Source: Lytechinus pictus (taxonomy: Eukaryota). From it: a stretch of DNA of 64,000 bases. Shown piece after piece: positions 36,611 to 41,544 of the stretch. Made by a program: the position numbers and the translations under genes. Below the pieces are notes generated by a model. The model was not told the origin of the DNA. It did not search any database and saw only the letters and a list, made by a program, of their open reading frames with translations. Numbering within the stretch: the first letter of the stretch is position 1; every line of letters begins with the position of its first letter. The stretch lies in contig NC_087245.1 of NCBI RefSeq assembly GCF_037042905.1, forward strand, positions 14,882,001 through 14,946,000, written 5' to 3'.

Positions 36611-38798
36611 CTATCCATATTTACTTTTGGTGACGATGACGAGAGAGATGATGACAGCAGCGACGACGATTAGAAGGATCATGAGAAATGAAATGATGAA
36701 GATCATATTTCTTCGGAACCTTTGCTTCTTTTTAATGACAGCCATGCCTGCGTCGAGGTCAGGATCGACTGGCATTGAAATCTGGGCTTCACCCTCGCCG
36801 TCGACCTGGAAAAAAAAGAGGAAAACTGGTACTGCTACTTCGTAATATATATATTTTTGTGGGGAGATCATCTAAATTATGTAATTACTAAAGTGAGTCA
36901 ATTTCACTGTTGATTTTAATTTAACTACCGCAGTACTTGCGAAAAGGGGTTTGGTTTACTTTCCAAAATACATGCATGGTTAACAAAATAATTTCCAGTT
37001 TTTAAACACAATTTTTTTTCTTTAACCACTCCCCCCCCCCCCCTCCTCGGCTCTCTTTCTTAAGGTGAACGCAAGAAATAATATCTCGTTACTATATAAC
37101 GATGACTATGGAAAATTTTCCAATTCATGAAAATCCAAAGTTATCATAAGACTTATTACCTCCATTTATCAAGGTGATTCTATGGAGAAACGTGGTATGA
37201 TTTCTCTCTCTGAAAATCTATTGAATCAAAAGTCATATTGTAAAAGATACTACCCCTCCCTTCATTCCAGTGGGGCTAAGCCTGAAAAAATGAGGATGGG
37301 TAGCTGGCAAATGGGCCTTCCAAGTTTACTTTATGGAATCACCTCGGTAACCTTAAATATTTGACAGTACTTTAACCGTGCGTATCAACCCTGCCCCCTC
37401 TATCTAAATCACACTCCGTTGCCGTCTCCCTTTTAGGGTTCTCAGCTTTTCAAGAAAAACTAATTCCCTGATAATTTATTTAAACCCATTCCCAGTTTTG
37501 CGTGTTTTCTAAGTTGTTGCAGTGAATTACATGTAATTTCAGTATAAAAACAATAATGTAAAACTAATTAATACTATTACACTGGCATGTAATGGCCTCC
37601 CTTCTCCCCATACAGCCATCCTTTCCTCACCTTCCACAGAAAGAGGCTGATTTAAGGCAAACCTATCATTAAATTACAACAAAGACGCAACTTTGATATG
37701 CAACAAAATATAACAGAGTCTGACTGACTACCGTGCTTTCGACTTTTGGGCCGATGAAAATCCCCTGACTTTTCCCTCATTTGAAGCATTTTCTCCTGAT
37801 TTGATGTTTTTTTTAATCAAATTCCCTGATTTTTCCCTGACAGGAAAAAAAAGTAAAATAGTTTTCCCTGATGGGCTGGGAACCTTGCCTTTAAATAAAA
37901 ATCATACCTCTCCAGGAACCATTGTCGGTTGACCATCTATACTCCTGACGCGAGTCAGAATGATCCCTGAGCCACCTGAGCTGTTGGGTCTGGTGACGAC
38001 ACCATCATTCTCATTCTTCGTCGAGGACGTCGTCGTCTCGTCAACCTCGGAACTATGCTCTGTTTTCCGTATAAGCAGTATCCCATCGTCATCTTTCTTT
38101 TCCGTCCCTGCATATTTCGGACGTGGTGTCGCCGGGATTTCAAGACTTGCATCAAGTCGTGTATGGGTCCTTATTGTTTTCGAATTAGGTCCTGGCCCTT
38201 GAGTCAAGTCTAATTTCTTCGCGATGGACGACCCTGGCAAAGGTGCTTGCCGTTTCGATAGTGGTTGAGGTGAAACTGTTCGGGATCGACCATCGCTTGT
38301 ACTTTCAGACGGATTAAGAATTACATCTGATGTTCTTAATGGTGTTGATGAATGAATACTGGCTTTGTTTTCAGAAATGCATCCCAAAGCATTTTCCGTT
38401 CTGTCATCTTCTGAATGTCGATGATCCAACTCGGCGTAAATAGGATCTCGACCCTGTCCAACAGTTTTGCCATTCGTCAAACCAATGCGACTTGCCGTCC
38501 CTGGAGAAACCATGGAGGATGCCGACGACAACGATTGACCTGTGGCTGGGGTTGATGACGGCGAGTCAACGTCCTCCTCCTCTTCTTCCACAAAGTTAGC
38601 GGCTGGAATCCTAGCATAGGGGCGTGTCTGTATACTACTGTGTCCCTGAGCGGGTAATGCTGATAATGGTGGGGGTCGAGGGGCGTTGAGCTCTTTTTCT
38701 GAGGCTGGGACCAGTGCCGGTTGTTGAAGACCTGGGGTTTCGGCATAGATGTGTAGCCTACGATTATATTCATCGTCGGGTAAATTGCGGTCCCTCAT
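36611..38798 (-). CDS. Uncharacterised single-pass membrane protein; exons 38798..37908 and 36805..36611 (or ..36625 spliced to 33082..32997)
   Basis: 297-codon exon ending GAG|GTATGA, spliced in phase 0 to TTCCAG|GTCGAC; S/P/T/E-rich disordered region, basic patch KKKQRFRRN, then hydrophobic MIFIISFLMILLIVVAAVIISLVIVT; family not recognised. Confidence 0.8.
37434..37887. mobile_element. hAT-like MITE with apparent 5-bp TSD
   Basis: TAGGGTTCTCAGC / GCTGGGAACCTTG imperfect TIRs; CCTTT on both flanks; subterminal TTCCCTGA repeats. Confidence 0.6.
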
Positions 38799-39254
38799 CT
38801 ATATAAAATAAAAAAAGAAAACAAAACTTTATACTATTAATATGTCTATGTATATTTTTTTCCATTTGATATTTCTTTTCAATTTTTGTTCACTTCTGCT
38901 CAGAACTTAAACTATCGCGCAAGTAATGTAAATCATACAATATGCCCAAGTATTAATACAATTTGCCAGGGCTCTAGGATACACTCTGTGAGCCTCGCAA
39001 AAAAAAATATATGCCTACAAACAATCGAAATTGAGACACGAGGTCCTTGTGGTTCAGAAACAGAAACACATTTCGGATAAAAGGCGATAAAATAGTCTAA
39101 AAATAATATTGAACAATACTAATACTGAACAACCTTTTTTTTTCATATTAATAAGTTAGTTCTCTATTTAAAACATTCGTTGTGCTTACATACATACACT
39201 TTGGTAAAATGAATAGTATATCATGCATATGCCTATTTTCATAGATGAAAGGAG

Positions 39255-39439
39255 TATGTGTGTGTGTGTATTTGAGTTTTTGTCAGACGTGTATCAATCA
39301 GATATGATTATTTACGTCTGGGACCGACCTTTTAACGTCACCATCCGAAAGACGTGACCAGGGCTCGAACCTCGAACCTCTGCATCAATTTGTAACTTCC
39401 CCACAGCTTGGATTACAGGCGCACGCCACAACGCCCAGT
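39255..39439 (-). mobile_element. Chimeric SINE with 7SL(Alu-domain)-like head, B box, Deu/Nin-like core, 3' hairpin and (CA)n tail
   Basis: Minus strand ACTGGGCGTTGTGGCGTGCGCCTGTAATCCAAGCTGTGGGGAAG...GGTTCGAGCCC...GTCTTTCGGATGGTGACGTTAAA...CAGACGT(23 nt)ACGTCTG...ACACACACAC. Confidence 0.75.
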
Positions 39440-41544
39440 TGTACATCTTCTCATCTTATCTATATCAAACCATATCATAACCTTGTTATATTACTGGGTA
39501 GACGATGCGGAGTACCACTTCAATGACAAATATCGATCGACAGTTATTTCAGTAACCCAAAATCGATATGGTGATATTTCGAAAAGGCTAACACTTCGAA
39601 ATAATCAGTTTAATTTGTATCGTTTGCGACATTTTAGAGGATGACCACATTTCCAATGTTAGCATGCTTAGATGTAACTTTGATAAGATCATGAAGAAAC
39701 TGGGGTACACACGCCGAGATAGAGTTGTAAGACAGGGGTGTGAGAAGGGGGTGAAAGAAGGGATATACAAATGAGTGATTGGAAAACAAGACTGAAGAAG
39801 AGGAGTGTCGTTGATCTAGTTCCCTTATGAGCACAATCTAAATTTGCTGTTTTAAAGGGACACCATGATCATATATGAGACCAAGTTAATTGAAAGAATC
39901 AATATAGTAACCACATTAACGTATTATTATAGATTTTCATGGGCCACTTCGGATAAACATGTCCTTTACTTTTGATAAACTCACAATATGAACCTGACTT
40001 TGTGAAAATATTTACATAAAGTACCATTGTCGTAATGATAACAATGTTGGTATCTCATATACAATAACAACAATTAATCATGACAATTTATACATTGTAG
40101 TATGAAAACGAGTTCGGGTCATTATGAATTACGTCACACAGGAAGAATTATTTAAAAAAAGAACATGTGCGTGAAAGTTTATTGTCATATATATTCATTT
40201 TCAGTGAAACTTTGGTAAATATGATGGTTACATTCGTAAAACATCATTGATCTCCAAAAAAATGCGCATTATATCTATGCAAGGCTTTTGGCCTTTTGCT
40301 ATTGGATAATTAGGCTCACGGCAAAGGTAATGACCGCTAGAAATAAAATATGAAGTATTGTTCATATTTTCATTGTCATATTTTCAATTGTTATCCGTTG
40401 CCTTTGTACAATATCAAGCTGATTGTCGATCTTTCTAGATATCAGTCATTTTTTACTCATGAAATGTTACTTAAAGAAAAGGGACAGGTTTATCAACTTT
40501 GGAAAACAATTATATAGGTCTAAGTTGGTTATTGGAACCACTACAAACAAACTTTTGACTTTTCTATTTTATTTGGAGTACTCATTTTAATCGCGATATG
40601 ACAGTTTAATTCACAGAACAACCATGGTACCATTAATTATACCCCCCCCCCCTCTTCGGGTCCCCTAAAAGGGAACAGTCAAGTGAGTCATTTCTATTAC
40701 GATGACCATTGAATTGATGTGTGTGCCACTGACTGTGACCAGGTACAATAAACGATTCTATAGGCTAAAGGTCTGATTTCTTTTACAATGACGATTTTAT
40801 GGACAATTACTTACCAAGCATATCGTCATTGTGATTTTGTTGAGTTCCGAAACACAAGTAAATGTTATGACATTTGAAATTTTCCCCAAACATGCACAAG
40901 AGATGTGTATAAAAGAGGGTCCATGATGTCACTCATTCACTGTTTCTTTGCATTTTAGTGTTTGAATTATACAATATTTCATTTTTGAATATCTGACAAT
41001 AATAAGACTCTTCATCAATTAACAATAGATTACAATCGCAATTCCATAATAGTAAGATATAAAACTTTGTGTAACATTGTAATGAGGAGAAAATAAAAAT
41101 ATTCCAAATTCGATAAAGCAAAATGCAAAATAAATAGTGGGTGGGTGATATTATCAGTTGCATACCGACAAGGATGTGCATATAAATTTTTTGTGAAATT
41201 AAGCCCCAAATTAAAATTTAATAACTTTTTCAATTGAGGTCCTATTTCGATAAAAATGTTCATTATTAAACTGGTATGTTTTTTTCTCCCTCTCACTCTC
41301 TTTAATTATCTCATCCTTTTGCTGGGTGAACTTTTCCCTTACAAATAAAGCTTTTTAACAATGTTAGTGGATGCATTGACAGTATTTTAATATTTTGGAC
41401 ATACTCTAACATCACCCAAAATGTCCAAGGGCAGATATTGGATTTACCAGGAGAGAGATGCACTTTGAAAAATGACAATAAAAAAAGAAAAGATTGGGAA
41501 GACGCTATGTACAGTGTATAAGCAGATCTGAAAGCACGAGAGTT

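What the first reader, a model, noticed from the sequence alone, without database searches (positions are those of the whole stretch)
39255..39439. Candidate 7SL-derived (Alu-headed) chimeric SINE in an invertebrate genome
Seen: the minus strand starts ACTGGGCGTTGTGGCGTGCGCCTGTAATCCAAGCTGTGGGGAAG. By hand alignment to the human 7SL 5' end as I recall it (GCCGGGCGCGGTGGCGCGTGCCTGTAGTCCCAGCT), 27 of 35 nt match, including the UGUA motif bound by SRP9/14. The sequence does not continue as 7SL or Alu. It runs into a tRNA-type B box (GGTTCGAGCCC), a Deu/Nin-like segment (GTCTTTCGGATGGTGACGTTAAA), a 3' stem-loop (CAGACGT...ACGTCTG) and a (CA)n tail. Established: 7SL-derived SINEs are known from Euarchontoglires (Alu, B1) and hagfish, with an Alu-like segment reported in amphioxus. 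Inference: an independent origin of a 7SL-headed SINE by head swap onto a resident tRNA/Deu-type SINE, possibly keeping SRP9/14-mediated ribosome targeting. Only one copy is visible here and I see no clear TSD.
Basis: partly seen in the sequence, partly recalled or inferred. Interest (0 to 1): 0.85.

Follow-up and report, generated by a model that had tools for sequence, protein, structure and literature searches.

The report
Sea-urchin SINE with 7SL head
This is one copy of a young, roughly thousand-copy jumping element in an echinoderm genome whose first 45 or so bases were copied from the animal's own 7SL (signal-recognition-particle) RNA, an origin so far reported only for Alu-type elements of a few vertebrates.

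Summary
Window 39257-39439 (minus strand) is a 183-nt SINE copy with no substitutions against the family majority sequence.

- **Head origin.** SINE nt 1-35 align to nt 1-34 of the host's own 7SL genes with one mismatch and one inserted A. Rfam Metazoa_SRP matches the head (31.6 bits, E 2.2e-6). No tRNA model matches.
- **Shared 5' end.** In 33 of 34 aligned copies the family sequence starts within a base or two of the position matching 7SL nucleotide 1.
- **Copy number.** At least 1,022 dispersed copies keep the head/body junction.
- **Age.** 16 of 34 best-scoring copies have no substitution against the majority sequence.
- **Retroposition marks.** Short target-site duplications are enriched over controls, and 5'-truncated copies exist.
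- **Body.** After the head come a perfect B box, the 5' third of the Nin-DC domain (26 of 33 against a published Nin-SINE), a stable 3' hairpin and a (CA)n tail.
- **Host.** The genome encodes bindin, so it is an echinoderm.

Not shown: a tRNA-headed parent SINE, a partner LINE, transcription, or SRP9/14 binding. Unlike every published 7SL SINE, it keeps only the 5' part of 7SL. Earlier notes of this scan report the same family on other DNA of this genome. I found no report in print.

The parts
39394..39439 (-). 7SL-derived head: the complete 5' domain of the SRP Alu domain (helices 2, 3 and 4 with the UGUAAU turn), SINE nt 1-46
   Evidence: Nt 1-35 align to host 7SL nt 1-34 with 1 mismatch and 1 inserted A. 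45-nt alignment to the 7SL paralogue on C12. Rfam RF00017 model positions 1-45 aligned. Same two-hairpin fold as the host 7SL 5' end.
39379..39393 (-). Spacer (ACAAATTGATGCAGA) between head and B box, origin unknown
   Evidence: Found only behind the 7SL head: 7 exceptions in the genome. All 7 were read; 5 are 5'-truncated copies and 2 are old copies that still carry the head with an internal deletion or insertion.
39361..39378 (-). Duplicated B-box region. GGTTCGAG is a partial copy made by a 7-nt duplication. It is followed by GGTTCGAGCCC, which fits the pol III B-box consensus (recalled motif GGTTCGANNCC).
   Evidence: Two of 34 aligned copies lack the 7-nt duplication (L017_3, L026_2).
39320..39353 (-). 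[quoted passage not shown]
   Evidence: By-eye alignment to Nla_Nin, printed from supplementary file 4 of PMC4758252: 26 of 33 columns identical, 1 gap. Lsa_Nin_1 and Pan_3 show the same stretch. The rest of Nin-DC is absent.
39284..39320 (-). 3' stem-loop (7-bp outer and 6-bp inner stem), presumed recognition site for the partner LINE's reverse transcriptase
   Evidence: -11.5 kcal/mol, z -4.0, 0 of 200 shuffles fold as well. Also present in the centroid fold of the whole element.
39257..39283 (-). Tail ACAAAAACTCAAATA(CA)n. The CA run varies in length between copies.

Best explanation
The element is one copy of a non-autonomous retrotransposon (SINE) family of an echinoderm. The family was founded when the first 45-47 nt of the host's own 7SL RNA became joined to a body. 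That 7SL piece is the whole 5' domain of the SRP Alu domain. The body consists of a B box, the 5' part of a Nin-DC core, a 3' hairpin and a (CA)n tail.

Shown here:
- the 7SL origin of the head
- the shared 5' end at 7SL nucleotide 1
- about a thousand or more dispersed copies
- subfamilies
- copies with no substitution against the majority sequence
- short target-site duplications
- 5' truncations

Inferred mechanism:
- RNA polymerase III starts at nt 1, driven by the 7SL-derived A-box-like stretch and the B box about 58 nt downstream. The family sequence has no TTTT, so it reads through to a T run in the flank.
- A still unidentified 'stringent' LINE recognises the 3' hairpin and (CA)n tail and copies the RNA into a nicked target. 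This gives short variable duplications and 5'-truncated copies.
- The retained Alu 5' domain may bind SRP9/14 and bring the RNA to ribosomes that are making the LINE protein, as proposed for Alu. I put this last step at about 0.35.
For: Head and 7SL:
- Host 7SL genes: 7 full-length matches at 272-283 bits.
- SINE nt 1-35 align to 7SL nt 1-34 with one mismatch (C3 to T) and one inserted A. There is a 45-nt alignment to the paralogue on C12, which itself has ACT...AAGT.
- The C3-to-T change is matched by G-to-A on the other strand of helix 2, so the pair is kept.
- Rfam Metazoa_SRP is the only meaningful Rfam match. No tRNA was found by ARAGORN or by Rfam at E up to 10.
- 18 of the 25 scored RF00017 matches in the genome are sub-threshold stretches of 58-96 nt. 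The three that were cut out and read are SINE heads.

Family:
- 43 scored matches of 92-100% identity on many contigs, with 1,766 first-look candidates.
- 425 copies are within 3 mismatches of the 45-nt head/body junction of the window's subfamily.
- 597 copies are within 1 mismatch of the sister subfamily's 35-nt junction.
- 642 copies are within 3 mismatches of the 49-nt junction-to-B-box stretch.
- All reversed-pattern controls gave 0.
- The 5' boundary is shared by 33 of 34 aligned copies.
- 16 of 34 have no substitution against the majority sequence (median 0.59%; these are the best-scoring copies, so the sample is biased young).
- Old copies of roughly 85-93% identity still carry the head.

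Retroposition:
- Exact flank repeats of 7 nt or more occur in 8 of 29 copies, against 4.3% of 812 mismatched flank pairs. For 6 nt or more the figures are 12 of 29 against 16.1%.
- 10 of 15 inspected loci are 5'-truncated copies with unrelated upstream DNA.

Host: Pfam Bindin matches at 236.7 bits.
Against: - No transcript evidence.
- No LINE with this tail was found.
- No tRNA-headed sibling was found, so how the chimera formed is open.
- Only 45-47 nt of 7SL are present and the 3' part of the Alu domain is missing. Every published 7SL SINE has it (PMC13023118, passages read).
- In the window's subfamily a 2-nt deletion removed one of the two C residues of the helix-4 loop. That loop pairs with the helix-3 loop in SRP (recalled), which may weaken SRP9/14 binding.
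- Thermodynamic folding of the head is no better than shuffles (z +0.9). The same is true of the genuine host 7SL 5' end (z -0.5).
- The whole-element minimum-energy fold does not reproduce the Alu fold.
- Many copies have no clear TSD, this one included.
- Some copies sit in tandem arrays or inside larger repeats, so not every copy arose by retroposition.
Confidence: 0.88

Rival explanations
1. The head serves only as a promoter donor. The 7SL 5' end supplies the transcription start and an A-box-like element for polymerase III. The Alu fold and SRP9/14 play no part in mobility, which depends entirely on the 3' hairpin and tail.
For: The partner is evidently a tail-specific ('stringent') LINE type. 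Such a LINE already recognises the RNA through the 3' hairpin, so ribosome docking may be dispensable. The youngest subfamily has altered the helix-4 loop. The 3' Alu-domain strand is absent.
Against: Nt 1-30 are invariant in all 8 SINE heads aligned except one change in one old copy. That includes old copies whose bodies carry many changes. Helix 2 is kept by a compensatory pair. Kojima (PMC7245038, abstract) argues from Alu and the hagfish SINE that the Alu-domain fold is needed for efficient retrotransposition.
Confidence: 0.45
2. The chimera arose by template switching. A LINE reverse transcriptase copying a resident tRNA-headed Nin/Deu-type SINE RNA jumped to 7SL RNA near nt 46.
For: The architecture (7SL piece, B box, Nin-like core, LINE-type tail) parallels the origin proposed for hagfish SINE1-1_EBu (PMC7245038, Discussion passages). 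Echinoderms are listed as having Nin and Deu SINEs, for example SINE2-3_SP (PMC5804259). Other tRNA-like elements in this genome carry the same GAGGTTCGAGCCCCGG-type B-box context.
Against: No element with the same spacer, B-box-to-core junction, core or tail behind another head was found. Searches gave 9, 7, 47 and 26 hits, and one search gave 160. All that were inspected are truncated or indel variants of this family. The 'not' letters were set one base off, which weakens that one search. The mollusc-type Nin core has 0 matches. A parent more than about 12% diverged would have been missed.
Confidence: 0.4
3. The SINE descends from a 7SL gene locus by internal deletion. The 5' domain would have been fused to the B-box element that lies just downstream of the host's 7SL genes.
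For: 6 of 7 host 7SL genes have GGTTCGAGTC followed by a T run within about 55 nt downstream of the gene end. SINE nt 52-82 align to the first 34 nt downstream of the C10 genes, with 1 of 300 shuffles scoring as well for two of the genes.
Against: Against 20 other B-box contexts from 332 kb of the same genome, the 7SL-downstream elements score 18-25. That is no better than unrelated tRNA-like elements, which score up to 31. The likeness is therefore explained by the B box itself. For the other five genes the share of shuffles scoring at least as well was 0.07 to 0.72. Nothing like the core or tail follows the 7SL genes.
Confidence: 0.07
4. It is not a mobile element but a 7SL pseudogene fragment, a tandem or segmental repeat, or human Alu contamination.
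For: Some copies are in tandem arrays (L017: four units; L039: two) or inside a larger repeated unit (L039 and L040 share their upstream flank). The head is Alu-like enough to trip a likeness filter.
Against: Over a thousand copies are spread over all large contigs, with different flanks, enriched TSDs and 5' truncations. The head matches the host 7SL. The body has nothing of 7SL or Alu beyond nt 46.
Confidence: 0.02

Closest known systems
SINE1-1_EBu (Ebu1-1) of the hagfish Eptatretus burgeri (Kojima 2020, PMC7245038: abstract and passages of Results and Discussion read; copy number from PMC13023118)
   Same: Its 5' end was taken from the host's 7SL RNA, independently of the mammalian families. 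It is a chimera with modules of other SINEs and LINEs. It has a non-L1 partner with a short-repeat tail ((AAC)n there, (CA)n here). It is young, with a copy number in the low thousands (2,363 there; at least 1,022 junction-bearing copies here).
   Different: The hagfish element keeps both the 5' and the 3' region of 7SL around a central deletion. This one keeps only the 5' 45-47 nt. Here a separate B box and a Nin-DC-like core follow. The partner LINE is known there (RTE) and unknown here. The host is an echinoderm, not a vertebrate.
Alu, FLAM, B1 and Tu of Euarchontoglires, and Urop of the shrew mole (Kosushkin et al. 2026, PMC13023118: abstract and passages read)
   Same: 7SL Alu-domain head starting at 7SL nt 1. 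The A-box-like stretch and the B box are at similar distances (the Alu promoter layout is recalled). They share the proposed reliance on the Alu-domain fold.
   Different: Those are made of 7SL sequence throughout (5' and 3' regions, about 183-nt central deletion). They end in poly(A) and use L1. This element is 7SL only in its first quarter and has a stem-loop and (CA)n tail.
Nin-DC / Deu / Inv SINE superfamilies, for example SINE2-3_SP of Strongylocentrotus purpuratus and the Nin-SINEs of molluscs (PMC5804259, PMC4758252 and its supplementary file 4)
   Same: It shares the stretch GTCTTTCGGATG..GACG.TAAA....GGTCCC (26 of 33 against Nla_Nin). That stretch is the 5' part of Nin-DC, said there to equal the Inv domain.
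   Different: Those have tRNA-derived heads and the full domain. Here the head is 7SL and only the first third of the domain is present. The SINE2-3_SP sequence itself could not be seen, so identity with it or with another Repbase entry is not excluded.

Membership tests
SINE (general; SINEBase definitions, PMC3531059 Definitions passage) | Short (under 1 kb) interspersed, non-tandem repeat | tested here: met
   About 180 nt. Copies lie on all large contigs with unrelated flanks. A minority sit in tandem arrays.
SINE (general; SINEBase definitions) | [quoted passage not shown] | tested here: met
   425 + 597 junction-bearing copies.
SINE (general; SINEBase definitions) | At least 60% identity to a tRNA, 5S or 7SL RNA over an overlap of at least 60 nt (exceptions allowed if pol III transcription is shown) | tested here: not met
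   The 7SL overlap is 35 nt with six genes and 45 nt with the C12 paralogue. Beyond nt 46 the Rfam alignment is mostly mismatched. This is a database threshold, not a biological criterion, but the element fails it on length.
SINE (general) | Internal pol III promoter (A and B boxes) and transcription by pol III | tested here: inconclusive
   The B box is a perfect fit to the recalled consensus at nt 69-79. The A-box-like stretch at nt 12-22 fits only in TGGC. The family sequence has no TTTT.
SINE (general) | Marks of LINE-mediated retroposition: target-site duplications and 5' truncation | tested here: met
   TSDs of 7 nt or more in 8 of 29 copies against 4.3% of controls. 10 of 15 inspected loci are 5'-truncated copies.
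SINE (general) | 3' end shared with a partner LINE | tested here: inconclusive
   No other element shares the tail. One candidate cluster on C8 has no reverse-transcriptase frame. Only near-identical tails could be found with these tools.
SINE1 (7SL-derived SINEs, as used by Kojima 2020) | 5' part originated from 7SL RNA | tested here: met
SINE1 as known so far (Kosushkin et al. 2026) | Both 5' and 3' terminal regions of 7SL retained around a central deletion of about 183 nt | tested here: not met
   A local alignment of the whole SINE against the 7 host 7SL genes ends at SINE nt 35-45. The body shows no significant match to the rest of 7SL.
Nin-DC / Deu SINE superfamily | Presence of the conserved central domain | tested here: inconclusive
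   Only the 5' part (about 33 nt) is present, 26 of 33 against Nla_Nin by eye. The mollusc-type core pattern has 0 matches in the genome. No Deu reference sequence was available.

The most novel reading that the evidence does not exclude
This would be an origin of an Alu-type SINE in an invertebrate, independent of the vertebrate families. Only the 45-nt 5' domain of the SRP Alu domain is kept, which from memory is the minimal SRP9/14-binding piece. That piece would still recruit SRP9/14 to dock the RNA at ribosomes, here serving a tail-specific non-L1 LINE. If true, the 5' domain alone is the selected unit in 7SL-derived SINEs, and ribosome hitch-hiking is a general route to SINE success, not a peculiarity of L1 and Alu.
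Probability: 0.3. Interest if true: 0.8.

Novelty: new variant of a known kind. Interest (0 to 1): 0.62.

Why it matters
Independent births of SINEs from 7SL RNA are regarded as extremely rare. A 2026 paper states that they are known only from supraprimates, a hagfish and now a shrew mole (PMC13023118).

An echinoderm family would be the first invertebrate case. It would also be the first that keeps only the 5' domain of the Alu fold.

That makes it a natural experiment on two questions. What does the 7SL piece contribute: a promoter, SRP9/14 docking, or both? And does that advantage hold with a LINE partner that already recognises its template by a 3' hairpin?

The family is young and sea urchins are experimentally tractable, so the question can be tested directly.

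Tried and rejected
- **Laying reads.** Expression, transcript ends and insertion polymorphism therefore stay untested.
- **Sequencing runs.** Runs of six studies labelled organism A and one run labelled organism B hold 0.77-0.94 of 17 sampled words. None was laid, so I draw nothing from them. The small shares (0.12-0.18) in runs labelled as sea-urchin, echinoderm, fish or marine metagenomes are not evidence.
- **Partner LINE.**
  - the tail 22-mer with a non-family core gave 160 hits. All those inspected are truncated or indel variants.
  - the terminal 25-mer with different upstream sequence gave 9 hits, all indel variants.
  - a recurrent C8 context has no reverse-transcriptase frame.
- **tRNA-headed sibling.** Searches found none. 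In one search my excluded-letter sets were one base out of register, so family variants passed; the mollusc-type Nin core has 0 matches.
- **7SL-downstream B-box origin.** It looked promising. It was rejected by the control with 20 other B-box contexts.
- **'Older subfamily without the inserted A'.** This is a single copy, L038, so I do not use it.
- **Thermodynamic z-scores.** For the head and for the whole element they are uninformative.
- **Other look-ups.**
  - Protein Atlas on the neighbouring 298-aa frame gave nothing.
  - The SINEBase supplements could not be read, and file 1 of the PMC4758252 supplements was not searched. Repbase and Dfam are not on hand, so a catalogued entry such as SINE2-3_SP could not be compared.
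  - A search for sequence words of the element in papers found no relevant paper.

Full report
**What is there**

On the minus strand, window 39439 to 39257 reads as follows:
- a 46-nt stretch beginning ACTGGGCGTTGTGGCGTGCGCCTGTAATCC
- a 15-nt spacer
- a duplicated B-box region ending in GGTTCGAGCCC (39371-39361)
- GTCTTTCGGATGGTGACGTTAAAAGGTCGGTCCC (39353-39320)
- a hairpin CAGACGT...ACGTCTG (39320-39284)
- ACAAAAACTCAAATA(CA)n

At Rfam's curated thresholds the whole window has no RNA family, and ARAGORN finds no tRNA. With permissive thresholds on 39000-39700, the best of 7 listed matches is Metazoa_SRP (RF00017). It covers 39347-39439 on the minus strand at 31.6 bits, E 2.2e-6, below the gathering score of 70. 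The first 46 nt are aligned to model positions 1-45 (helices 2, 3, 4), and 34 of 46 positions are identical to the consensus. No tRNA model appears at E up to 10.

**The head comes from the host's own 7SL RNA**

The window's genome (811.7 Mb, 368 contigs) holds seven full-length 7SL genes at 272-283 bits (25 of 6,077 candidates scored). The other 18 scored matches are sub-threshold stretches of 58-96 nt at 31.9-34.9 bits. The three that were cut out and read are heads of this SINE.
- Six genes begin ACCGGGCGTTGTGGCGTGCGCCTGTAATCCAGCT. The SINE differs in nt 1-35 by one mismatch (C3 to T) and one inserted A.
- The seventh gene, on C12, itself begins ACT and has ...GGAAGT. The alignment with it runs over 45 nt.
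- In the Rfam structure, C3 pairs with the G that is A in the SINE. Helix 2 is therefore kept as ACU/AGU instead of ACC/GGU.
- A profile built from 34 SINE copies hits the first 35-42 nt of 7 of 7 7SL genes at E 9e-6 to 6e-5.
- Past nt 46 the SINE shows no significant likeness to the rest of 7SL.
- Folded alone, the head gives the same two hairpins as the host 7SL 5' end. Neither is more stable than shuffles, so energy says nothing either way.

**It is a family, and a young one**

A search with 206 nt returned 43 scored matches of 92-100% identity on many contigs, from 1,766 first-look candidates.

Whole-genome pattern counts, each with a reversed-pattern control of 0:

| Pattern | Mismatches allowed | Copies |
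|---|---|---|
| 45-nt head/body junction of the window's subfamily | 3 | 425 |
| 35-nt junction of a sister subfamily (loop AAGCTAYRTGGGG) | 1 | 597 |
| 49-nt junction-to-B-box stretch | 3 | 642 |

- For the 45-nt junction, the first 100 listed are exact matches.
- The first two sets differ by a 2-nt indel. At least 1,022 copies therefore carry the 7SL head joined to the body.
- The sister loop (CTACGT or CTATGT) is closer to 7SL (CTACTT or CTACAT). The window's form (CT--GT) looks derived.
- A form without the inserted A is a single copy.

In an alignment of 34 copies from 30 loci, 33 copies begin the family sequence within a base or two of the position that matches 7SL nucleotide 1. The sequence upstream of that point is unrelated between loci.

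Sixteen of 34 have no substitution against the majority sequence (median 0.59%). These are the best-scoring copies and so are biased towards the young. The window copy has no substitutions and two single-A insertions.

Copies found by chance in flanks are 85-93% identical and still carry the head. The lineage is therefore not brand new.

**Marks of retroposition**

Of the 34 copies I dropped five: the four units of one tandem array, and one copy whose tail my pattern missed. Results for the other 29:

| Measure | Real flank pairs | 812 mismatched flank pairs |
|---|---|---|
| Exact repeat of 7 nt or more | 8 of 29 | 4.3% |
| Exact repeat of 6 nt or more | 12 of 29 | 16.1% |

- Clear cases are L021 (11 nt), L030 (11 nt, with 15 extra bases before the element), L015, L018 and L022.
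- Many copies, the window's among them, have none.
- A search for the tail behind a non-family core gave 160 places. Of 15 loci read, 10 are 5'-truncated copies with unrelated upstream DNA, 2 share an upstream repeat, and 3 are full copies with indels.
- Truncation points are spread along the element.

**The body**

- The B box fits the recalled consensus GGTTCGANNCC.
- The 7-nt duplication before it is missing in 2 of 34 copies.
- The next segment matches the start of the Nin-DC domain. Against Nla_Nin, printed from supplementary file 4 of PMC4758252, 26 of 33 columns agree with one gap. Lsa_Nin_1 and Pan_3 show the same stretch (aligned by eye).
- The remainder of Nin-DC is absent. That paper and PMC5804259 say the 5' end of Nin corresponds to the Inv domain and that Nin is part of Deu.
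- The 3' hairpin is strongly stable: z -4.0, 0 of 200 shuffles fold as well.
- The family sequence has no TTTT.

**Origin of the chimera: open**

I looked for the same body behind another head, using patterns that forbid the family's own letters next to a fixed family stretch.

| Fixed stretch | Hits |
|---|---|
| Spacer | 7 |
| Core | 47 |
| B-box-to-core junction (my excluded letters were one base off) | 26 |
| Tail | 160 and 9 |

- All hits inspected are truncated or indel variants of this family.
- A mollusc-type Nin core has 0 matches. The core start followed by six different letters also has 0.
- Parents more than roughly 12% diverged would escape these searches.
- The idea that the B box came from the B-box element just downstream of the 7SL genes looked significant against shuffles. 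It failed a control with 20 other B-box contexts from 332 kb of this genome: 18-25 against up to 31.
- No partner LINE was found. A recurrent context on C8 has no reverse-transcriptase frame.

**Host**

The genome has a two-exon match to Pfam Bindin at 236.7 and 53.1 bits, with 0 of 14 control genomes matching. This places it among the echinoderms, most likely the sea urchins. That bindin is a sea-urchin sperm protein is recalled. I did not go further.

**Literature**

- Kojima 2020 (PMC7245038; abstract and passages) describes the hagfish family as the only SINE1 outside Euarchontoglires.
- Kosushkin et al. 2026 (PMC13023118; abstract and passages) add the shrew mole. They state that no others are known and that all keep both ends of 7SL around a central deletion of about 183 nt.
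- Searches for sea urchin or echinoderm together with 7SL and SINE found no report. Neither did a search for sequence words of the element.
- Repbase and Dfam could not be consulted and the SINEBase supplements could not be read. A catalogued but unremarked entry is therefore not excluded.

**Earlier notes of this scan**

Searches show that other agents reached the same reading for at least a dozen other copies in this genome. I used them as leads only. My tests agree on head, copy number and youth. They do not reproduce the statements that a tRNA-type parent and a LINE tail are identified.

**Verdict**

This is a real, multi-copy SINE that was recently active, to judge from its many unchanged copies, with a 7SL-derived head in an echinoderm. 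It works like the hagfish SINE1 and, in its head, like Alu. It is a new variant because only the 5' domain of the Alu fold is retained and the rest is a B box, a Nin-like piece and a stem-loop/(CA)n tail. Transcription, the partner, how the chimera formed and SRP9/14 binding remain to be shown.

Noticed in passing
L031:1291-1459, L035:1295-1463, L036:1316-1463 (G000 contig C10, about 7.91-7.92 Mb): Each of three tandem 7SL genes has an old copy of this same 7SL-headed SINE ending 33 bp before 7SL nucleotide 1. It is inserted between a conserved upstream element (CCCTCAATA.GACAATAA) and the TATA-like box. The insertion predates the tandem duplication of the gene unit.
   Followed up: partly
L031-L036, first 20-55 nt after each 7SL gene end: 6 of 7 7SL genes carry an invariant B-box-like GGTTCGAGTC, then AGGTGTC and a second T run, just after the terminator. 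Around it the flanks differ. It looks like the 3' half of a tRNA and could be a downstream TFIIIC site, as in yeast U6 (recalled). The C12 paralogue lacks it.
   Followed up: partly
L037:1501-1799 (-), G000 contig C12: A divergent 7SL paralogue (272 bits) starts ACT and has GGAAGT, the same compensatory helix-2 pair as the SINE. It could be the source gene, or a gene converted by a SINE copy.
   Followed up: no
L017:1331-2040 (G000 C19:10865242-10865951); L039:1502-1868: Head-to-tail arrays of the SINE (four units and two units) are joined by the same few bases after the CA run. One search shows further pairs at about 190-nt spacing on C2, C4 and C7. This suggests SINE-to-satellite amplification.
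   Followed up: no
L039 and L040, 260 nt upstream of the SINE: The upstream flanks of copies on C18 and C5 are nearly identical. Some copies therefore travel inside a larger repeated unit.
   Followed up: no
window 37902-38798 (-): A 298-aa stop-free frame, rich in Ser, Pro and Thr, that looks like a large exon. The SINE lies about 460 nt upstream of it on the same strand. The Protein Atlas gave no usable hit.
   Followed up: partly
L002, L013, L028 (CGCCACA) and L017 unit 3, L030 (TAGCCCATA), directly before the SINE start: The same extra bases recur between the target-site duplication and nt 1 in unrelated loci. They may come from source copies transcribed from a start a few bases upstream, or from template jumps at the 5' junction.
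   Followed up: no
L071, minus strand, about 1271-1531 of the reversed locus: A SINE copy interrupted between B box and core by about 190 nt with inverted ends (CCCCGGGGGG...CCCCAGGGGAG), like a small DNA-transposon insertion. Its upstream part shows no 7SL head.
   Followed up: no
L042 and L065, 400 nt upstream of a truncated SINE tail: Two loci on different contigs share a repeat of about 400 nt with long inverted repeats. It ends in the same 5'-truncated SINE tail, so it is a composite repeat or a duplicated segment.
   Followed up: no
L007, L030, L045, L055 flanks; L046:2440-2530; L015:395-480: Other abundant repeats were seen. One begins (A)ACTGGGTCTGGAG.AAAGACTAC and, in L007, continues beyond the inserted SINE into an (AAC)n end. 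There are also tRNA-like SINE heads with other bodies.
   Followed up: no
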